A stretch of 64,000 nucleotides of DNA, from positions 24,095 through 88,094 of the forward strand of contig DOYU01000022.1 of NCBI GenBank assembly GCA_003518365.1. Direction: 5' to 3'. This DNA comes from Candidatus Magasanikiibacteriota bacterium (lineage in GTDB: Bacteria > Patescibacteriota > Patescibacteriia > Magasanikbacterales > UBA922). Positions 1,636 to 60,588 of the stretch are shown one piece after another; within the stretch, counting starts at the first letter, position 1, and each line of letters opens with the position of its first letter. The notes below the pieces were generated by a model. The model had not been told where the DNA came from. It did not search any database and was given only the letters and a program-made list of their open reading frames with translations. A program made the translations under genes and the position numbers.

Positions 1636-1974
1636 ATGATCACGACGATGACGGTAAAAGCGGTGAATGAGCTTCGGGAAGCTCTGCGGTACGCCGAGGG
1701 CAAGTGTGACGTAGTACTTGCCAGTGGTTTACCCTATGATTCGTCCATCGACAATCTAGCTGATTTCCTCGCCCACCTTTTTGAACAAGGGGGTAACGAT
1801 CTTCCTCTTCGTGAGTGGTTCCGTGCGCTCGAAGAACAGACCTTCAGGAAGCTGATTGAGAATGGCGCAAAGGGTGCCGACCTAGATCGTTACCTTGGAA
1901 TGAAGAAGTCGGCAAGGCAACAGTATCTTTACCGGCGATTTGGAATTGCGGTTACCAAATTGGGGAATAGGTAG
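1636..1974 (+). CDS. Hypothetical 112-aa protein in a locally GC-rich segment
   Basis: A GGAGG RBS precedes it and GC content is clearly higher than in flanking DNA. A perfect GC hairpin terminator follows. Confidence 0.45.
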   Translation: MITTMTVKAVNELREALRYAEGKCDVVLASGLPYDSSIDNLADFLAHLFEQGGNDLPLREWFRALEEQTFRKLIENGAKGADLDRYLGMKKSARQQYLYRRFGIAVTKLGNR

Positions 1975-1999
1975 ATCGTCCAGTCGCCCCGCTCATCAC

Positions 2000-2037
2000 G
2001 CCCTGCCCGAGATATCTCGGGCAGGGCATTTCTTTTT
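2000..2037 (+). terminator. Rho-independent terminator: 12-bp perfect GC stem (gccctgcccgag / ctcgggcagggc) followed by a T-tract
   Basis: Seen directly in the sequence at 2000-2027, with attTCTTTTT after it. Confidence 0.8.
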
Positions 2038-7367: not shown

Positions 7368-7478
7368 GCAAGCAACCCTACCTCCTGTCCTCCTTCCCTT
7401 AAAAAGGGAAAGAGGAACGTGCTAAGAAGGTTTCCTCCTCTTTTTAAGGGAAGGGTTAGGGTGGGGTTGCGTTGCCGC
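7368..7478. repeat. Copy 1 of a hairpin repeat element with terminal inverted repeats, which I call MITE/REP-like (TIR gcaaccctacc ... ggtggggttgc)
   Basis: It shares a 29-nt 5' block and the 3' TIR with the copy at 59139..59215. Confidence 0.7.
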
Positions 7479-26918: not shown

Positions 26919-27143
26919 GTTATTTCAGATAACGTCTCTGGACATGCAAAGTTGCACCGTTGTTAGTTTACCAGATTTTCGTTTTAGTACTAGCCTTCGT
27001 CGAAGCCTCAAACTTTCAATTTTTTTGTCGTGGTTTACTATTGACAATTTATCTAAAAACGGTAAGATTGGGTCGAGAGTCGGGGTTTACCTTATTTCGA
27101 GGGATTCCTTGTGACTTTCAAGCATATCGAGAAGGAGCCTGTC

Positions 27144-27350
27144 ATGGCACGGAGTGTTCACCTCACGAACGGTCAGGGTCAGCCCGTCCGCTTCAGCAAG
27201 GGGCAGGGTGAGTCGGTCTACATCGGAAACGGCGGCGATCCGGTGTACGCCTCGAGCTCGGGGAAAATCGTCTGGGCGACGAACCCCGACGCTCTCCCCG
27301 CCAACCTGCGTCCCGGCCAGGTCGGGACGCGCGACGAGTTCAAGCCGTAG
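27144..27350 (+). CDS. Small 68-aa ORF with high GC, a GAAGGAG RBS 7 nt upstream of the ATG, and a putative promoter at 27041..27068. Function unknown.
   Basis: Its GC content is much higher than the surrounding genome, and a GC-rich terminator follows at 27371..27413. Confidence 0.35.
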   Translation: MARSVHLTNGQGQPVRFSKGQGESVYIGNGGDPVYASSSGKIVWATNPDALPANLRPGQVGTRDEFKP

Positions 27351-27370
27351 CCTACGGTAAGAACCATCTC

Positions 27371-27413
27371 AGGCCGGCTTCGCAATTTCGCGGAGCCGGC
27401 CTTTCACTTTTTA
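27371..27413 (+). terminator. GC-rich rho-independent terminator (aggccggct...agccggcct followed by ttcactttttag)
   Basis: Read directly from the sequence. Confidence 0.6.
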
Positions 27414-50991: not shown

Positions 50992-52077
50992 TTATCTCGC
51001 TACAACATAGTGCATGTTTCCTATATTACGGACTTTTCCTTTCATTTCCATGAGGGTGAGAGTACTATTTACCTCTCTGCTTGTCAAACTACTCTGTTTT
51101 GCCAATTCATCTACGTGAATTGGTTCCCTAGACAAATGCGTAAGAATCGCTGCTTCTTGTGGAGTGTCAGGGATGATCGCGGCATTTTGTGTAAATGTTT
51201 TGAGTTCATTTAAATTGAGCACGTCAATGACATCTGATGCTGACGTGACCATGTGTGCGCCTTCTTTGAGCAGCTTATTTGGACCTGTGCCAGTTTCTGA
51301 CGTAATTGGGTGGGGGACTGCAAAAATTTCTCTGCCATGTTCGAGTGCATAGCTCGAGGTAATGAGTGCACCTGATTTTTCTGCGGCTTCGATCACAAGC
51401 GTGCCAAGCGTCATGCCGGCAATAATGCGGTTTCGTCGCGGAAAGGTAAATTTTGATGGGAGTGAGCCTGGGGGATATTCTGAAATAACAGCGCCGCCCC
51501 GAGCAATGATTCTCTCGGCAAGTTGTTTGTGTACCGCTGGATAAATGTGATGGCGATTGATACCGCTCCCGAGCACGGCAATCGTCGTGCCACCTGCCTG
51601 CATCGTAGCATCGTGAGCAATGCCATCGATGCCAAGTGCTAGGCCACTTGTAACCACCAGCCCATGTTGTGCAAGACCGCTGACAATTTCTTGCGTAATC
51701 TGTTTGCCATAAGCACTTGCCTTTCTTGTCCCTACCACGGCAATAGGATATTGATTTTTGAGTTGCAATTTGCCTCGCACAAATAAACAAAACGGTGGAT
51801 CATAGATTTGCTTTAACAATGGTGGGTACTGTTCGTCTTGCTCGGTAATAACAGTGATATGTTCTTGCTCTAAAATTTTCTTGATCCGTTTTGGATCAAT
51901 ATCTTCTCGCCACATGAGGAAAAGATTTTTTGTCTCTTCATCCCATGGAAGTTTTTCTTTTATGACATAGGTATCTGCATCAAAAAAAGCGTCTGCAGAA
52001 CCAAAAGCTGCGACGCCTTCTTTGAAACGTTTGACCGTCATTTTTGGAAAGTGAGCAAAAAGTGCTTCAGCAATCAT
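50992..52077 (-). CDS. dprA: DNA processing protein DprA (Smf)
   Basis: Rossmann-like motifs VVTSGLALGIDGIAH and PRRNRIIAG. Confidence 0.85.
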   Translation of the reverse strand: MIAEALFAHFPKMTVKRFKEGVAAFGSADAFFDADTYVIKEKLPWDEETKNLFLMWREDIDPKRIKKILEQEHITVITEQDEQYPPLLKQIYDPPFCLFVRGKLQLKNQYPIAVVGTRKASAYGKQITQEIVSGLAQHGLVVTSGLALGIDGIAHDATMQAGGTTIAVLGSGINRHHIYPAVHKQLAERIIARGGAVISEYPPGSLPSKFTFPRRNRIIAGMTLGTLVIEAAEKSGALITSSYALEHGREIFAVPHPITSETGTGPNKLLKEGAHMVTSASDVIDVLNLNELKTFTQNAAIIPDTPQEAAILTHLSREPIHVDELAKQSSLTSREVNSTLTLMEMKGKVRNIGNMHYVVAR

Positions 52078-56349: not shown

Positions 56350-58497
56350 ATGCATCTCGATACCTCAGTTATTCATCTCAATAAGGTAGGGGAGGCGCTT
56401 GAGAAGCGTCTGCTTCGGCTTGGGATAAAAACGGCGCACGATCTGTTATTTCATTTTCCGTTTCGCTATGAAGATTTTAGCCAGGTGTCTGGGATTACAC
56501 AACTGCAGAACGGACAGGAAACAACGATTGAAGGAACAGTCGAGCTGATTGCAAATAAACGTAGTCCACGAAAGTGGACGATGATCACAGAAGCGGTAGT
56601 AAGCGATGGGACAGCGCAGATGCGTGTTGTGTGGTTTGGTCAGCCATTTATTGCAAAAAGTTTACATGTAGGGGACAGGGTGTTTCTGTCTGGAAAAGTG
56701 AAGGATGATATGTTTGGGTTACAGATGGTGTCGCCGAGCTACGAAAAAATCAGAAATCAGGCGTCAGTAACCAGTAACCTAGACACTTTGAATACTGCAA
56801 GAATCGTGCCAATGTATTCACTTACAACAGGGCTCACACAAAAACAATTGCGGATGTTGATAAAGCAAGTATTACCCGTTGCCAAAGAACTTTCAGAATG
56901 GCTGCCTGAAGATATCCGCGACAGAGCAGACGTCATGCCACTGCATGAGGCGCTTGCGCATATCCATTTTCCAGAAGACCTGGATAGTTTGAAACATGCC
57001 GAGCGTCGATTGAAATTTGATGAATTATTTTTATTGCAGCTCAGAGCTGAGATGATTCGCCAAGAAGTGAAGCAAGAAACTGCATCAGAAATTCCATTTG
57101 CTGAAGAAACGATCAAGGCGTTTGTGGCTGCATTGCCGTTTGCTCTCACGAAAGCACAAAAGATTGCGGCGTGGGAGATCTTGAAAGATATAGAAAAAAA
57201 AGAACCCATGAATCGATTGCTTGAAGGAGATGTAGGATCAGGGAAAACCGTTGTGGCTGCGATGGCGACGCTCGATGCTGTTCATGCTGGGTTTCAAGTA
57301 GCGATCATGGCGCCGACGGAGATTTTGGCGAAGCAACATTTTCAATCATTTCAGACGTTGCTTCCCAATGCAAAGATATTGCTTATAACATCGTCAGAAA
57401 TTAGAAATTTGAAATTAGAAATTGGTGAAGAATCAAAGAAAAAGCGGAGAGATCAAGCCATTGCATGTATGAAAAGTGGGGAAGCGCAGATTGTGATTGG
57501 GACGCATGCATTGCTGACAGACGATGTCTTATTTAAAAATCTCGGTTTGGTCATCGTTGACGAACAACATCGCTTTGGTGTGGCGCAGCGGAAAACAATT
57601 CGAGAAAAGTCTGGTAATCCAAATACCATGCCGCATTTTCTTTCTATGACTGCGACACCGATTCCACGTTCGTTTGCATTGACATTGTACGGCGATTTGG
57701 ATTTGTCTATTATCAATGAAATGCCAGTGGGGAGGAAACCTGTGAAGACTACGGTTGTCGATCCACACGCACGGTCTGCTGCGTATGATGTTATTCGGGA
57801 TGAGGTGAAGGCGGGGAGGCAGGTGTTTGTAATTTGTCCGTTGATTGAGGAAAAAAAAGATGAAGGGACAGGTTCCTCCACTTCGGCGGACAGGCGTGAC
57901 CTGTCAGTACAGACGTCTGGTTCAGAAAAAAAATCTGTATTAGCAGAGTATGAAAAACTTTCAACAAAAATATTTCCTAATCTTCGCGTTGCATATATTC
58001 ATGGAAAAATGAAATCTGTAGAGAAAGATGCTGTGATGAACAAATTTGCTACTGGCGAGATCGATATTCTTGTTTCAACCTCAGTCGTTGAGGTCGGTGT
58101 AAATATTCCAAACGCGAGTGTGATGATGATAGAAGGAGCTGAAAATTTTGGGCTTGCACAGCTTCACCAGTTTCGTGGACGTGTGGGGCGAAGTGAATAT
58201 CAGTCATATTGTTTTTTGTTTACTGATAGTGATAGTCAGCGAGTGGCAGAGCGACTGAAATTTTTTTCAAGCACGACGAACGGATTCAAAGTCGCTGAGT
58301 ATGATCTCGAGATGCGTGGGCCGGGAGAAGTGTATGGGAAGATGCAGAGTGGTATGGGAGAGTTGAAGTTTGCGACGATGCAAGATGGCGAGCTTATCAA
58401 GCTTGCACGAGAGGTTGCACGTGGTATTGATTTTGAGAAATATAGTACGCTAAAAGAAAGGGTGGAGGAGTGGGAGCGGGGGATTCATCTGGAATAA
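56350..58497 (+). CDS. recG: ATP-dependent DNA helicase RecG
   Basis: A wedge domain and helicase motifs (GDVGSGKT, DEQH). Confidence 0.9.
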   Translation: MHLDTSVIHLNKVGEALEKRLLRLGIKTAHDLLFHFPFRYEDFSQVSGITQLQNGQETTIEGTVELIANKRSPRKWTMITEAVVSDGTAQMRVVWFGQPFIAKSLHVGDRVFLSGKVKDDMFGLQMVSPSYEKIRNQASVTSNLDTLNTARIVPMYSLTTGLTQKQLRMLIKQVLPVAKELSEWLPEDIRDRADVMPLHEALAHIHFPEDLDSLKHAERRLKFDELFLLQLRAEMIRQEVKQETASEIPFAEETIKAFVAALPFALTKAQKIAAWEILKDIEKKEPMNRLLEGDVGSGKTVVAAMATLDAVHAGFQVAIMAPTEILAKQHFQSFQTLLPNAKILLITSSEIRNLKLEIGEESKKKRRDQAIACMKSGEAQIVIGTHALLTDDVLFKNLGLVIVDEQHRFGVAQRKTIREKSGNPNTMPHFLSMTATPIPRSFALTLYGDLDLSIINEMPVGRKPVKTTVVDPHARSAAYDVIRDEVKAGRQVFVICPLIEEKKDEGTGSSTSADRRDLSVQTSGSEKKSVLAEYEKLSTKIFPNLRVAYIHGKMKSVEKDAVMNKFATGEIDILVSTSVVEVGVNIPNASVMMIEGAENFGLAQLHQFRGRVGRSEYQSYCFLFTDSDSQRVAERLKFFSSTTNGFKVAEYDLEMRGPGEVYGKMQSGMGELKFATMQDGELIKLAREVARGIDFEKYSTLKERVEEWERGIHLE

Positions 58498-58578
58498 GGT
58501 TTCTGAGGTTGGTAAGGTTGTTGAGGTAGCTAAGGTTTCTAATGATTACGGGAAAGAATTTTGCTTTATACACATAAG

Positions 58579-58602
58579 ATGCTTTACAAAAAGCATTTTT
58601 TG
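58579..58602 (+). terminator. Terminator after recG (atgcttt acaa aaagcat followed by ttttt)
   Basis: Read directly from the sequence. Confidence 0.6.
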
Positions 58603-58692
58603 GTGTATTTTGGGCACATCGTTGTCGGCCTCATTCTATCCTTTGCCTAAGTGGGCGTTGGAAAGAAGAGGCAAACGCATCAAGGGAACACC

Positions 58693-58914
58693 ATGCATTG
58701 TGTCAAGAAGGTCGGTTCCGAGTATGTTCAAGCCGACTTCCACCTGGCCACCCGCGGGAATCACCGGCGCATCCTGGTGCCGGTCCGTCCTCTCAGGGAA
58801 GGAGATCCCCTCCCCAAGGGAGTGTCCTCGATGATGGATCTCGGTAGGCTCTGTGCCACTGAGCGAGAGCTGAAGGCCGCCCGCGTCGCTGCGGGAGTGC
58901 CGCACCGCGGCTAG
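58693..58914 (+). CDS. Possible small ORF or pseudogene fragment in a GC-rich islet. The frame has a strong GC3 skew, an AAGGGA RBS precedes the ATG at 58693, and the track ORF starts at GTG 58651.
   Basis: About 70% of third-codon positions are G/C in this frame and not in the antisense ORF. No family was recognised. Confidence 0.25.
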   Translation: MHCVKKVGSEYVQADFHLATRGNHRRILVPVRPLREGDPLPKGVSSMMDLGRLCATERELKAARVAAGVPHRG

Positions 58915-59086
58915 CACTTCATCGCCGTCCACGTGGCAAGGAGAGGGCTGCGTGTACTCATCCGCGGCCCTCTCCTCTGAGAATTGCATTTGTACCCAAC
59001 CACTCGCACCTCACTGTGATTTGAACTCAAAACGTTCAAGTCAGAGCAAGGTAGCTCATATCGAGTGGTTGTCTCTACAATTAAAA

Positions 59087-59115
59087 ACACTCCGTGTAAG
59101 CGGGGTGTTTTTTTT
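59087..59115 (+). terminator. Rho-independent terminator (acactccg tgtaag cggggtgt followed by T8)
   Basis: Read directly from the sequence. Confidence 0.7.
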
Positions 59116-59138
59116 CGTGCTGGGTTTTTCTTGCTGCG

Positions 59139-59215
59139 GCAACCCTACCTTCTGTCCTCCTTCCCTTATAAAATATTCCTTCCCCTTTTTAAGGGGAGGG
59201 CTAGGGTAGGGTTGC
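59139..59215. repeat. Copy 2 of the MITE/REP-like hairpin element with terminal inverted repeats (perfect 11-bp TIR gcaaccctacc ... ggtagggttgc)
   Basis: It shares the 29-nt 5' block gcaaccctacctyctgtcctccttccctt and the 3' TIR with 7368..7478. Confidence 0.7.
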
Positions 59216-59229
59216 GTGGCTAACAGTCA

Positions 59230-60588
59230 TTACGTCTTTGCAATCAATTCTTCTATATTTTTTACTTGCACTGTTTTTACACCATCAATGATTGGTACGG
59301 CTTTACTCGCTGCGGTGATGACGCGTGTCATGCCAAGCTGGGCTGCTTCTTTTATTCTTTTTTCGAGAAAACGTACGGATCGGACTTCACCGCCAAGACC
59401 GACTTCTCCAAACACGACCAAATCTTTGCCACCGGATTTTTCTTTGAAACTACTTGCGATGGCAAGGCAGACTGCAAGATCTACCGATGGTTCTGTTGCT
59501 TTTACACCGCCGACAACATTGAGATGAATGTCGTACTGTCCGAGATCTAGGCCTGCCCGTTTTTGTAGCACGGCGACGAGGACGTGGAGGCGATTGATAT
59601 CAAAGCCACTTGCTTTTCGTACTGGATATCCAAAACTTGTTTTGTTTACCAGTGCCTGGATTTCTACGAGGAGTGGGCGCGTGCCTTCCATGAGGCAGGT
59701 GATAATACTGCCAGGCATGTCGTCACCTCGTTCTGCGAGAAAGGCGGCGGATGGATTTGCTACACCAAAAAGACCATCGCTTTTCATTTCAAAAATACCA
59801 ACTTCGTCTGTGGATCCAAATCTATTTTTGACAGCGCGAAGAATTCTGTATACATGATATCTATCTCCTTCGAGGTATAGGACGGTGTCGACAAGATGTT
59901 CCAGTGTTTTGGGGCCGGCCACCGTGCCGTCTTTTGTGACATGTCCGATAAGGACGACTGGCACGCCGCTCGACTTTGCAGCGTCGAGGAGTGTTACGGT
60001 GCAGGCACGAATTTGGGACACACTTCCTGATTCTCCTGTCGCGTCCGCATTCCACATGGTTTGCATGGAGTCGACGATTACTAACTGTGGTTTGAGTTTT
60101 TTAATTGTACTAGAAATAACATCAATGTTTGTCTCATTCGAGAGGGAAAGAGACGCATGGCTATGCGTCTTTACGTCGTTCATGTTTAGTCTATCGGCTC
60201 TTAGTTTGATTTGTTCGACGGATTCTTCTCCGGAGAAGTAGAGTGTGTTTGGGATGCTGGCAGCGAGCTGGAGAGACAGTGTGGATTTCCCAATGCCAGG
60301 TTCACCGCCAAGCAGTGTGAGGCTTCCCGGGACAATGCCACCGCCGAGGACACGGTCAAGTTCGCTGATATGTGTTTGTGCTCTGACGATGTTTTTCCCT
60401 GCGATATCTTTCAATGATGTTGTCTTTGCAACAGGGAGATCTTGAAGATTTTTTGATTTGTTATTTTCTTGTGTTATTGCCTTCTCAAGCGTACCCCATT
60501 TGCCACATTCAAGACACCTGCCGTTCCATTTTGTAAACTGGGCGTCGCAGTTTGTACAAGAAAAAATAGTTGTGTTTTTTTCAGCCAT
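59230..60588 (-). CDS. radA: DNA repair protein RadA/Sms
   Basis: An N-terminal C4 zinc ribbon, a RecA-like ATPase (GEPGIGKST) and a Lon-like C-terminal domain. Confidence 0.9.
   Translation of the reverse strand: MAEKNTTIFSCTNCDAQFTKWNGRCLECGKWGTLEKAITQENNKSKNLQDLPVAKTTSLKDIAGKNIVRAQTHISELDRVLGGGIVPGSLTLLGGEPGIGKSTLSLQLAASIPNTLYFSGEESVEQIKLRADRLNMNDVKTHSHASLSLSNETNIDVISSTIKKLKPQLVIVDSMQTMWNADATGESGSVSQIRACTVTLLDAAKSSGVPVVLIGHVTKDGTVAGPKTLEHLVDTVLYLEGDRYHVYRILRAVKNRFGSTDEVGIFEMKSDGLFGVANPSAAFLAERGDDMPGSIITCLMEGTRPLLVEIQALVNKTSFGYPVRKASGFDINRLHVLVAVLQKRAGLDLGQYDIHLNVVGGVKATEPSVDLAVCLAIASSFKEKSGGKDLVVFGEVGLGGEVRSVRFLEKRIKEAAQLGMTRVITAASKAVPIIDGVKTVQVKNIEELIAKT

What the first reader, a model, noticed from the sequence alone, without database searches (positions are those of the whole stretch)
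58498..59229. 730-bp recG-radA intergenic region containing a GC-rich islet with a coding-like GC3 skew, but no recognisable structured-RNA motifs
After the recG terminator, about 58600..58980 is clearly more GC-rich than the surrounding genome. One plus-strand frame (58651/58693..58914) shows about 70% G/C at third codon positions, the hallmark of a coding sequence from a high-GC organism, while the antisense ORF does not. It ends in a 9-bp GC hairpin (58940..58975) and then a terminator (59087..59115), followed by copy 2 of the hairpin repeat element. I considered RNase P RNA, tmRNA and SRP RNA, because GC-rich islands in AT-rich genomes are often structural RNAs. I could not find their conserved blocks: CR-I GGAAAGUCCGGGCUC, the tmRNA T-arm and 3' CCA, or the SRP GGAA tetraloop helix. 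Together with the islets at 1636..2037 and 27144..27413, this suggests recurrent acquisition of short high-GC cassettes, each with its own GC-rich terminator. The source could be a high-GC host or phage, which would fit an episymbiotic lifestyle.
Basis: partly seen in the sequence, partly recalled or inferred. Interest (0 to 1): 0.5.

Follow-up and report, generated by a model that had tools for sequence, protein, structure and literature searches.

The report
Hidden small protein gene, structured UTRs
The GC-rich patch between recG and radA is a real 73-amino-acid protein gene that public annotation calls on the wrong strand; it has its own promoter and unusually conserved folded RNA ends, and related bacteria carry different small GC-rich genes at the same spot.

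Summary
The GC islet is real: 61-69% GC against about 42% for the genome. It is not RNase P RNA, tmRNA, SRP RNA or any other Rfam family.

It is a 73-aa protein gene at 58693..58914 (+). Orthologues in four other Candidatus Magasanikbacteria lineages keep the frame open. Substitutions peak at codon position 3, dN/dS is 0.34, and AlphaFold gives pLDDT 90.5. The family has no Pfam, PHROG, PADLOC, PDB or viral match. The publicly annotated 117-aa antisense ORF is a shadow ORF.

The gene is its own transcription unit:
- a promoter embedded in the recG terminator,
- a conserved 5' hairpin and an SD,
- the ORF,
- a 14-bp GC hairpin,
- a conserved 75-nt 3' long hairpin with covariation, 90% identical in the 3' UTR where synonymous sites are saturated,
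- a bidirectional terminator shared with radA.

Across about 20 related loci the same scaffold carries several unrelated small ORFs. One contig has two units in tandem. Nearly all these ORFs have GC3 of 0.54-0.89, against 0.21-0.48 in the adjacent radA.

High GC is therefore a maintained, lineage-wide property of this slot. It is not a mark of recent import from a high-GC donor or phage. The protein's function is unknown.

The parts
58579..58602 (+). recG intrinsic terminator: hairpin AUGCUUU-ACAA-AAAGCAU followed by T6
   Evidence: Read from the sequence. Conserved in L007, L008 and L088. Relatives have an equivalent hairpin that contains TTGACA.
58583..58611 (+). Promoter-like site TTTACA-17-TATTTT, embedded in and just after the recG terminator
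   Evidence: It is the only sigma-70-type match in 58400-59300. The same terminator-with-promoter design, with consensus TTGACA-17-TATACT, recurs in more than 10 related loci. Its function is inferred; transcription was not measured.
58628..58672 (+). Conserved 5'-leader hairpin (GCCUC...GAGGC)
   Evidence: Present in the MFE and centroid folds. The leader is 79% identical to L007 where synonymous sites are saturated. 4 of 17 pairs keep pairing through changes on both sides, for example GCCUC/GAGGC to GUCUC/GAGAC. Support is moderate: only 5 sequences.
58682..58687 (+). Shine-Dalgarno-like AAGGGA, 5 nt upstream of the ATG
   Evidence: Read from the sequence. Orthologues have GGAGGA, GAGGA or GGAGGG at the same distance from ATG or TTG starts.
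58693..58914 (+). 73-aa protein gene (MHCVKKVGSEYVQADF...AARVAAGVPHRG, stop TAG), a Magasanikbacteria-restricted family
   Evidence: Orthologues are in L007, L009/L088 (P0004), L029/L095 (P0005) and P0006. Differences to L007 by codon position are 27/23/42. BLOSUM score is 180 in this frame against 51 in the antisense-ORF frame. dN/dS is 0.34. AlphaFold2 gives pLDDT 90.5.
58636..58989 (-). 117-aa antisense 'shadow' ORF, not a gene (publicly annotated as hypothetical protein UV82_C0016G0020)
   Evidence: Its only database hit is itself. Substitutions peak at its codon position 1 (42/23/27), and it is 25% identical to the L007 counterpart against 51% for the sense frame. It stays open because its stop codons correspond to the sense codons TTA, CTA and TCA, which the GC3-rich gene does not use.
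58939..58976 (+). Post-stop GC hairpin, 14 bp (AGGAGAGGGCUGCG / CGCGGCCCUCUCCU), with no U-run
   Evidence: Conserved in L007, L008 and L009 with paired changes. Hairpins with a GAGGAG...CUCCUC base follow the unrelated ORFs of L031, L092 and L029.
58997..59071 (+). Conserved 3'-UTR long hairpin: P1 CAACCACUCG/CGAGUGGUUG, P2 CCU/AGG, and an apical stem
   Evidence: Not in Rfam. In a 9-sequence alignment 97.2% of cells are paired, against 35-52% when partners are slid. 6 pairs change on both sides. The covariation score is 0.230 against 0.160 in shuffles, exceeded in 0 of 500. G-U pairs favour the + strand. 19 distinct versions occur across about 20 loci. The 3' UTR is 90% identical to L007 while the ORF is 58% identical.
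59083..59115 (.). Bidirectional intrinsic terminator (A5 - ACACUCCG/CGGGGUGU - U8), shared by the small gene (+) and radA (-)
   Evidence: helix 3, with a CG-to-UA double change. In L008 and L009 it lies directly after the radA stop. The simple terminator scan did not list it.
59139..59215 (.). Palindromic repeat element (GCAACCCUACC...GGGUAGGGUUGC), copy 2; not part of the gene unit
   Evidence: The second copy is at 7372-7470. In L007 the corresponding repeats flank an inserted DUF559 endonuclease-like gene.

Best explanation
The islet is the coding region of an independently transcribed small-protein gene. It sits in a conserved 'expression slot' between the convergent genes recG and radA of Candidatus Magasanikbacteria (Patescibacteria/CPR).

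Shown:
- A 73-aa ORF on the + strand is conserved as protein under purifying selection.
- It is flanked by a conserved 5' leader hairpin and by a 3' UTR (GC hairpin, 75-nt long hairpin, terminator). The 3' UTR is far more conserved than the ORF itself and shows covariation on the + strand.
- In relatives the same scaffold carries unrelated small ORFs.
- Nearly all ORFs in the slot are strongly GC3-rich and use codons that are rare in the host genome.

Inferred:
- Transcription starts at the promoter embedded in the recG terminator and ends at the bidirectional terminator shared with radA.
- The terminal hairpins protect a short mRNA.
- The product is a small basic cytoplasmic protein: a beta-hairpin plus two strands, with weak resemblance to small beta-barrels, followed by a C-terminal helix ending in the AR-AAGV--R motif. 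It probably acts by binding a partner, either nucleic acid or protein.
- Its fast evolution (dN/dS about five times that of its neighbours) and its replacement by other ORFs in sister lineages fit an accessory, conflict-type or niche-type role rather than housekeeping.
- ORF replacement most likely occurs by homologous recombination in the conserved flanks.

The high GC3 is maintained, either by selection on the mRNA or its codons or by GC-biased repair at a recombination hotspot. Which of these applies is open.
For: Coding:
- Protein-level orthologues exist at the same locus.
- Substitutions by codon position are 27/23/42, with 22 codons differing only synonymously.
- NG86 window vs L007 gives dS 1.38, dN 0.47, omega 0.34, against omega 0.07 for radA and 0.09 for recG. 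Other pairs give omega 0.41-0.45.
- SD-like sequences precede ATG or TTG starts in all orthologues.
- AlphaFold2 gives pLDDT 90.5 and pTM 0.77 from only 4 sequences.

Not a known RNA. The ORF alone folds no better than shuffled sequence (z = -0.87), and ORF-internal helices are not kept in L007.

Unit anatomy:
- Promoter.
- Leader hairpin.
- 3' element covariation and strand.
- Conservation: 3' UTR 186/206 identical, leader 87/110, ORF 127/219, with pS about 0.6 in the neighbouring genes.

Slot and cassette behaviour:
- L008 has an unrelated 94-aa ORF between the homologous leader and 3' UTR. nhmmer finds L008's leader and 3' part but not an ORF match, and BLASTP gives E = 1.1.
- L031/L093 and L092 carry two further families. 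L092 has two tandem units, each ending in the element.
- Diverged elements follow other small ORFs in L013, L018, L027, L030 and L034. nhmmer finds further versions of the element in the gaps of L014, L015, L023, L024, L041, L058 and L069.
- recG-radA synteny holds in about 60 loci, with gaps from 3 nt to 3.1 kb.

Maintained GC:
- Slot ORFs have GC3 of 0.54-0.89, with one exception at 0.35. radA in the same loci has 0.21-0.48.
- Highly expressed genes are not GC3-rich: EF-Tu is 0.38 and ribosomal proteins about 0.3.
- The codon-usage index is 0.54, against 0.73 +/- 0.03 for the genome.
Against: - No expression data. The promoter, transcript ends and translation are all inferred.
- The family is tiny: 5 real members among 1.84 billion representatives. 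The AlphaFold confidence therefore rests on a shallow alignment.
- dS is saturated, so vertical descent of the ORF and repeated allelic replacement cannot be told apart rigorously.
- The near-identity of the 3' element between the window and L007 could reflect recent gene conversion rather than selection.
- The leader structure rests on 5 sequences, and the alignment register is imperfect.
Confidence: 0.85

Rival explanations
1. The GC islet is a structured non-coding RNA: RNase P RNA, tmRNA, SRP RNA or a novel ribozyme or sRNA. GC-rich islands in AT-rich genomes are often structural RNAs.
For: The whole 58590-59120 stretch folds much better than shuffles on both strands (z = -6.8 and -5.4).
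Against: - No Rfam family matches, even at E<=10, and ARAGORN finds no tmRNA.
- The fold signal comes from the UTR hairpins. The ORF alone has z = -0.87.
- Helices predicted within the ORF are not conserved in L007.
- The islet shows 3-base periodicity, substitutions concentrated at codon position 3, and dN/dS of 0.34.
Confidence: 0.03
2. The ORF is a recently acquired cassette from a high-GC donor (host bacterium, phage or plasmid), and its composition is the donor's signature.
For: - GC3 is 0.73 against a genome mean of 0.36, and the codon index is about 6 SD below the genome.
- The GC boundaries coincide with the ORF.
- The ORF is replaced by unrelated ORFs in sister lineages.
- Two other islets in the window have the same profile.
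Against: - Orthologues sit at the same locus in lineages with RadA 64-90% identical, and their dS equals that of the flanking genes.
- GC3 stays at 0.55-0.80 despite saturated synonymous divergence.
- No homologue exists outside this clade among 1.84 billion representative proteins.
- Nothing turns up in phage records, viral contigs, PHROGs or viral folds.
- No mobility gene lies within +/-10 kb.
Confidence: 0.12
3. The real gene is the 117-aa antisense ORF (58636..58989, minus strand), as in the public annotation.
For: It is the longest ORF in the gap. It is open in L007 too, and gene callers chose it in most assemblies.
Against: - Substitutions peak at its first codon position (42/23/27).
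- It is 25% identical with BLOSUM 51, against 51% and 180 for the sense frame.
- It has no homologue except itself.
- Its N-terminal 'conservation' is simply the conserved GC hairpin read as protein.
- In L029 the sense ORF is conserved. No antisense counterpart was looked for there.
Confidence: 0.02
4. The locus is an integron-like cassette site: ORFs with a 3' folded recombination site (attC-like) inserted by a site-specific recombinase.
For: - Variable ORFs are each followed by a conserved imperfect hairpin.
- Two units lie in tandem in L092.
- The position in the chromosome is fixed.
Against: - No integrase or any recombinase gene lies within +/-10 kb.
- The RYYYAAC/GTTRRRY core sites are not conserved. 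The window's ACCCAAC is AGACAAC in relatives, and the 3' side GTTGTCT does not fit.
- Each unit has its own promoter and SD.
- In many relatives the hairpin is flanked by an A-run and a U-run and is plainly a bidirectional transcription terminator.
- The hairpin is conserved in sequence, unlike attC sites (established knowledge of integrons).
Confidence: 0.05
5. The islet is a decayed fragment or pseudogene of a housekeeping gene.
For: None beyond its small size and orphan status.
Against: - No similarity to any Pfam family or to any larger protein.
- The frame is intact, with start, SD and stop, in all five lineages.
- dN/dS is below 1.
- The predicted fold is compact and confident.
Confidence: 0.02

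Closest known systems
Small orphan protein genes missed or called on the wrong strand ('shadow ORFs' in GC3-rich genes)
   Same: It is a short ORF without database relatives. The longer antisense ORF stays open because A-ending codons are avoided, and that ORF is what annotation pipelines report.
   Different: Here the true gene can be proved by orthologues. It also lies in an elaborate, conserved non-coding scaffold.
Bidirectional intrinsic terminators between convergent genes
   Same: In relatives the 3' long hairpin is an A-run, a GC-containing stem and a U-run between the small gene and radA. The window has such a terminator at 59083-59115.
   Different: The hairpin is 60-100 nt long with conserved internal loops, including an SD-like GGAG(G). 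It is conserved in sequence across lineages whose RadA is only about 63-69% identical to the window's. In the window's clade it has lost its U-run yet is retained upstream of a second terminator, which suggests a role beyond termination.
Integron gene cassettes (ORF plus attC)
   Same: Unrelated small ORFs occupy one chromosomal site, each followed by a folded element, and tandem units occur.
   Different: There is no integrase and no attC core sites. Each unit has its own promoter, and the element is sequence-conserved and acts as a terminator.
3'-UTR-derived regulatory sRNAs of enterobacteria such as CpxQ and SroC (from general knowledge, not tested here)
   Same: The 3' UTR with its terminator is more conserved than the coding sequence upstream.
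   Different: There is no evidence of processing, targets or a chaperone. The idea was not testable here.
Small beta-barrel (SH3/Tudor/KOW-like) proteins and the antitoxin VapX

Membership tests
Bacterial RNase P RNA (Rfam RF00010/RF00011) | Match to the covariance model, with the conserved CR-I to CR-V blocks and the P4 helix | tested here: not met
   No hit at gathering score over the whole window, and none at E<=10 over 58400-59300.
tmRNA | tRNA-like domain with a 3' CCA context, plus a tag-peptide reading frame | tested here: not met
   ARAGORN finds only two tRNAs in the window. No Rfam tmRNA family matches.
SRP (4.5S) RNA | Domain IV helix with conserved loops; match to the Rfam model | tested here: not met
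   No hit.
Protein-coding gene | Reading frame kept open in orthologues, with a start codon and a ribosome-binding site | tested here: met
   The frame is open with an SD plus ATG or TTG in the window, L007, L088/P0004 and L029/P0005. P0006 adds an open frame of the same family, but its locus could not be inspected.
Protein-coding gene | Substitution pattern of a translated sequence: excess at codon position 3 and dN/dS below 1 | tested here: met
   27/23/42 differences by codon position. Omega is 0.34-0.45 in three pairs.
Protein-coding gene | Evidence of transcription and translation | not testable with these tools
   No RNA-seq or proteomics data are available here.
HicA toxin (Pfam PF07927), considered because of a G-x-H ... 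LPKG ... LG pattern | Match to the family profile and a conserved catalytic histidine | tested here: not met
   No Pfam hit at E<=1. The His is Tyr in L007 and Gly in L029 and P0006. No HicB neighbour is present.
Integron gene cassette | attC site with RYYYAAC / GTTRRRY cores, and an intI integrase at the platform | tested here: not met
   The cores are not conserved. No recombinase is among the genes within +/-10 kb.
Recently acquired genomic islet | Atypical composition | tested here: met
   GC3 is 0.73 against 0.36 +/- 0.06, and the codon index is 0.54 against 0.73 +/- 0.03.
Recently acquired genomic islet | Absence from related lineages, presence of mobility genes, or an identifiable donor | tested here: not met
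   Orthologues are syntenic in lineages with RadA 64-90% identical, and their dS equals that of the flanks. No mobility genes are nearby. No donor or viral relative was found.
Intrinsic (bidirectional) terminator | GC-containing stem-loop followed by a U-run, with an A-run upstream for the opposite strand | tested here: met
   59083-59115 is A5 - 8-9 bp stem - U8. Helix 3 has a double-sided change in 4 sequences. The simple scan did not flag it.
Conserved structured RNA element (3' long hairpin, new motif) | Base pairs maintained through compensatory changes across species | tested here: met
   97.2% of cells are paired, and 5 pairs in helices 1 and 2 change on both sides (6 counting the terminator helix). 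The covariation score is exceeded by 0 of 500 shuffles, and slid controls pair at 35-52%. 19 versions all fold as the same interrupted hairpin. No formal R-scape test was possible.

The most novel reading that the evidence does not exclude
Magasanikbacteria keep a dedicated chromosomal expression scaffold between recG and radA. It consists of a promoter built into a terminator, a 5' hairpin, and a conserved 3' long hairpin with an SD-like loop. Unrelated small ORFs are swapped into it among lineages without any integrase. Their extreme GC3 and rare-codon usage is actively maintained, either by selection on the mRNA or by GC-biased repair at a recombination hotspot. The 3' hairpin would then be a functional RNA module of its own, a new motif absent from Rfam. 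The small proteins would be fast-evolving effectors of the episymbiotic or anti-phage lifestyle.
Probability: 0.25. Interest if true: 0.75.

Novelty: new variant of a known kind. Interest (0 to 1): 0.5.

Why it matters
- It corrects a public mis-annotation. The gene is on the other strand from the one annotated.
- It defines a new small-protein family with a confident but unmatched fold.
- It defines two conserved RNA elements that are absent from Rfam, in an uncultivated phylum for which almost nothing is known about gene expression signals.
- The wider pattern is unusual. One conserved promoter, leader and terminator scaffold carries different small ORFs in different species. Nearly all use codons that are rare in their own genomes, and this persists after synonymous sites have saturated.
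- If the pattern is real, it offers a compact, testable case for two questions. What maintains local GC3 in bacteria, selection on mRNA or biased gene conversion? And how do CPR bacteria exchange accessory small genes?
- It also shows that atypical GC cannot be read as recent horizontal transfer in these genomes.

Tried and rejected
1. **Known RNA families.** I ran Rfam at gathering score and at E<=10, plus ARAGORN. Only chance-level hits appeared (ceN41, PyrR, rimP leader and others, all far below gathering).
2. **Word-indexed protein search with either ORF.** Each ORF found only itself. That looked like 'no protein', but the cause was the 5-residue word limit. Orthologues came from synteny (radA loci) and then from a profile.
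3. **HicA-like toxin idea**, from motif resemblance. Rejected: no Pfam hit, the His is not conserved, and there is no HicB.
4. **The L018/L027/L013 slot ORFs as distant relatives of the family**, from an apparent RG-H-R--V-P pattern. Rejected: HMM iteration does not recruit them, and hhalign probability is 0.1%.
5. **attC/integron reading.** Rejected.
6. **Phage or plasmid pool.** I found no 3' element in viral contigs and no tblastn hit in phage records. Three of the slot ORF families had no relatives in viral contigs. PHROGs and PADLOC gave nothing, and BFVD folds gave nothing. The plasmid collection was not searched.
7. **Codon bias linked to high expression.** Rejected: EF-Tu and the ribosomal protein genes have ordinary GC3.
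8. **Structured-mRNA explanation for the ORF's GC.** The ORF-only z-score is -0.87.
9. **afdb50 fold library.** It was unavailable.
10. **Literature.** Two full-text searches found nothing describing such loci. A third search failed on syntax.
Full report
**Source and setting.** The window comes from a groundwater Candidatus Magasanikbacteria genome (Patescibacteria/CPR). The identical RadA protein occurs on GCA_001000125.1 and several aquifer assemblies. The antisense ORF is annotated in a GW2011_GWD2 bin. recG (56350..58497, +) and radA (59230..60588, -) are convergent and identified by Pfam. The 732 bp between them hold the finding.

**Checking the observation.** The GC islet is real.
- The 100-nt windows between 58700 and 58999 are 61-69% GC, in a window that averages about 42%.
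- The 51 long genes of the window have GC3 of 0.36 +/- 0.06.
The 117-aa ORF 58636..58989 (-) shares codon position 2 with the + frame and shows 0.70/0.45/0.69. Composition alone cannot choose the strand.
- The hairpin after the ORF is a 14-bp stem (58939-58976). The terminator at 59083-59115 and the palindromic repeat at 59139-59215 are as described, with the repeat's other copy at 7372-7470.
- Rfam finds only two tRNAs in the whole window. In 58400-59300 it finds nothing above chance even at E<=10, and ARAGORN finds no tmRNA. The negative result for RNase P, tmRNA and SRP stands.

**RNA or protein?** The whole stretch 58590-59120 folds far better than shuffled sequence on both strands (z = -6.8 and -5.4), which at first favours an RNA. 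Word-indexed protein searches with either ORF returned only the query itself. The answer came from synteny.
- A scan for RadA relatives gave 80 loci.
- In L007 (RadA 90% identical) the gap aligns to window 58504..59149 at 76% identity. L008 and L009 share only parts of it.
- The ORF of L007 that corresponds to the window's + frame is 51% identical at the protein level. L009/L088 and the much more distant L029 (RadA 64%) carry the same protein.
- A profile of these recovered the database entries P0003, P0004 and P0005.
- An exhaustive HMMER search of 1.84 billion representative proteins added one further member, P0006, plus a 28-aa fragment of the same family and one spurious repeat protein.

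**Strand and frame.** Between the window and L007, differences fall 27/23/42 on codon positions 1/2/3 of the + frame, and 22 codons differ only synonymously. The sense frame scores BLOSUM 180. The frame of the 117-aa antisense ORF scores 51, and its differences peak at its position 1. Nei-Gojobori estimates give dS 1.38, dN 0.47 and omega 0.34 for the ORF. radA has dS 1.01 and omega 0.07, and recG has dS 1.28 and omega 0.09. The two other ORF pairs give omega 0.41 and 0.45. The ORF alone has no excess RNA structure (z = -0.87), and the helices predicted within it are not maintained in L007.

The islet is therefore a protein gene, 58693..58914 (+), 73 aa, evolving about five times faster at non-synonymous sites than its neighbours. 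The antisense ORF is a shadow ORF. Its possible stop codons correspond to the sense codons TTA, CTA and TCA, which this gene does not use. That shadow ORF is what most assemblies and the NCBI record annotate.

**The protein.** AlphaFold2 on the four-sequence alignment gives pLDDT 90.5 and pTM 0.77. The model has a beta-hairpin (residues 2-15), two further strands, and a C-terminal helix (57-67) that carries the invariant AR-AAGV--R motif. Nothing known matches it.
- Pfam, PHROGs and PADLOC return nothing.
- Foldseek against the PDB and BFVD gives E >= 0.8.
- A HicA-like reading suggested by a motif was rejected.
- There is no phage or viral relative.

**The transcription unit.**
- *Promoter.* The only sigma-70-like site in the gap, TTTACA-17-TATTTT (58583-58611), overlaps the recG terminator hairpin (58579-58602). 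The same design recurs in many relatives: a terminator hairpin that contains the -35 box, then the T-run, then the -10 box, often with consensus TTGACA-17-TATACT.
- *Leader.* A leader hairpin (58628-58672) is conserved, with some compensatory changes. It is followed by an SD (58682-58687).
- *After the stop codon.* There is the 14-bp GC hairpin without a U-run, then a 75-nt interrupted hairpin (58997-59071), then an A5-stem-U8 terminator. In L008 and L009 that terminator lies directly behind the radA stop, so it serves both convergent genes.
- *Covariation in the 3' module.* In a nine-sequence alignment 97.2% of cells are paired, against 35-52% when partners are slid. Six pairs change on both sides. 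The covariation score is exceeded by 0 of 500 shuffles. Frequent G-U pairs, and the greater stability of the sense strand in most versions, point to the + strand.
- *Conservation.* Between the window and L007 the 3' UTR is 90% identical (186/206) and the leader 79%. The ORF is 58% identical, and synonymous sites of the flanking genes are saturated (pS 0.55-0.62). Both UTRs are constrained, the 3' one very strongly. Recent gene conversion is an alternative reading that I cannot exclude.

**A slot, not just a gene.**
- L008 (RadA 89%) has the homologous promoter, leader, post-stop hairpin and 3' hairpin, but an unrelated 94-aa ORF between them. nhmmer finds both flanks and not the ORF, and BLASTP gives E = 1.1.
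- A pattern scan of metagenome contigs for the 3' hairpin returned nine loci. Some repeat the known types. L093 and L092 carry two more ORF families, and L092 has two complete units in tandem, each ending in the hairpin and a terminator.
- A covariance model and nhmmer then found diverged versions directly downstream of radA, giving about 20 loci in all. They fall into three sequence subtypes. In many of them P1 is flanked by an A-run and a U-run, so it is itself a bidirectional terminator. Most carry an SD-like GGAG(G) in the 3' internal loop.
- Each of the loci I inspected in detail has its own small ORF of 63-166 aa upstream. Clustering resolves several sense-strand families that are unrelated by BLAST, HMM iteration or hhalign.
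- recG and radA are convergent neighbours in about 60 loci. The gap is 3-90 nt in a dozen lineages and 0.35-3.1 kb in the rest.
- No recombinase lies within +/-10 kb of the window's unit, and attC-type core sites are not conserved. Replacement by homologous recombination in the conserved flanks is the simplest mechanism. This is an inference.

**The GC anomaly.**
- Slot ORFs have GC3 of 0.54-0.89, with one exception at 0.35. radA in the same loci has 0.21-0.48.
- In the window, the gene's usage-based codon index is 0.54, against 0.73 +/- 0.03 for 45 long genes (minimum 0.67).
- It is not expression-linked codon bias. EF-Tu (GC3 0.38) and the ribosomal protein genes (about 0.3) are ordinary.
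- It is not a fading import signature. Three orthologues that differ by dS 1.2-1.4 still have GC3 of 0.73-0.80. A fourth, in a 34% GC genome, has 0.55 against 0.29 for radA. On a rough neutral relaxation estimate of my own, GC3 should have fallen to about 0.55 in the three closer lineages.
- No relative exists in any high-GC organism among 1.84 billion representative proteins.
- The GC-rich zone stops sharply at the ORF and its post-stop hairpin.
- What maintains it is unresolved. Candidates are selection on the mRNA, deliberate use of rare codons, GC-biased repair in a recombination hotspot, or a still unsampled GC-rich gene pool.

**Verdict.**
- The coding interpretation is right.
- The 'cassette' intuition is partly right.
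- The 'high-GC donor or phage' source and the idea of recent acquisition are not supported.
- The claim that there is no RNA structure here is wrong for the untranslated regions.

What is new: a small protein family with an unmatched fold, annotated on the wrong strand in public records; two RNA elements not in Rfam; and a conserved expression scaffold that hosts different GC3-rich small ORFs across a CPR lineage. Function remains unknown. My best guess is a fast-evolving accessory binding protein, and I hold it with low confidence. All statements about transcription and translation are inferences that metatranscriptomic and metaproteomic data from the same aquifer could test directly.

Noticed in passing
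window 27144-27350 (+), with promoter-like TTGACA...TAAGAT at about 27051-27079 and a terminator at about 27373-27410: A second islet holds a 68-aa ORF (MARSVHLTNGQGQPVRF...) with a promoter, an SD (GAAGGAG), an ATG and a GC-rich terminator. Its GC3 is 0.84 and its codon index 0.50. It has no Pfam, PHROG or PADLOC hit and lacks the 3' long hairpin of the recG-radA unit.
   Followed up: partly
window 1636-1974 (+): A third islet holds a 112-aa ORF (MITTMTVKAVNELREAL...) with TTGACA-17-TATAAA, a GGAGG SD and a GC-rich terminator. Its GC3 is 0.54 and its codon index 0.56. No family hit. The three islets form one compositional class of small, separately transcribed, rare-codon genes.
   Followed up: partly
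window 7372-7470 and 59139-59215; L007:5350-5960: A palindromic repeat element (GCAACCCTACC ... CCCTTTTTAAGGGG ... GGGTAGGGTTGC) occurs twice in the window. In L007 related repeats flank an inserted DUF559 (endonuclease-like) gene between radA and the small-gene unit. DUF559 genes also sit on the antisense strand of the same gap in L015, L024, L058 and L092. It looks like a MITE-like footprint or target of a selfish DUF559 element.
   Followed up: partly
L092:1-2100 (metagenome contig Ga0172380_10022511): Two complete small-gene units lie in tandem downstream of recG. Each has its own promoter, leader, ORF (110 aa and 97 aa), post-stop GAGGAG...CUCCUC hairpin, 3' long hairpin and terminator. 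L031 and L093 have the same two ORF families but only one 3' hairpin.
   Followed up: partly
L038 and L044, the recG-radA gaps (about 645 nt each): These gaps reach 77-79% GC in 150-nt windows, in genomes of 46-47% GC. They begin with long GC-rich hairpins and do not contain the 3' hairpin motif. Their coding strand and nature were not examined.
   Followed up: no
3' long hairpins of about 15 loci (for example L013, L014, L018, L023, L030, L034): An SD-like GGAG(G)/GAGGAGGA sequence is conserved in the 3'-side internal loop, 5-10 nt before the closing stem and the U-run, with no ORF downstream. The base of the post-stop hairpin is likewise GAGGAG/CUCCUC. No explanation was found.
   Followed up: no
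window 58636-58989 (-); NCBI protein UV82_C0016G0020: The public annotation, and most gene calls in other assemblies, place a 117-aa hypothetical protein on the wrong strand. The true 73-aa gene was called on only one JGI contig.
   Followed up: yes
window 50992-52077 (dprA), 56350-58497 (recG), 59230-60588 (radA): The slot lies in a neighbourhood of recombination and transformation genes: DprA, RecG and RadA all fall within about 10 kb. Whether this bears on the ORF swapping or on the protein's function is unknown.
   Followed up: no
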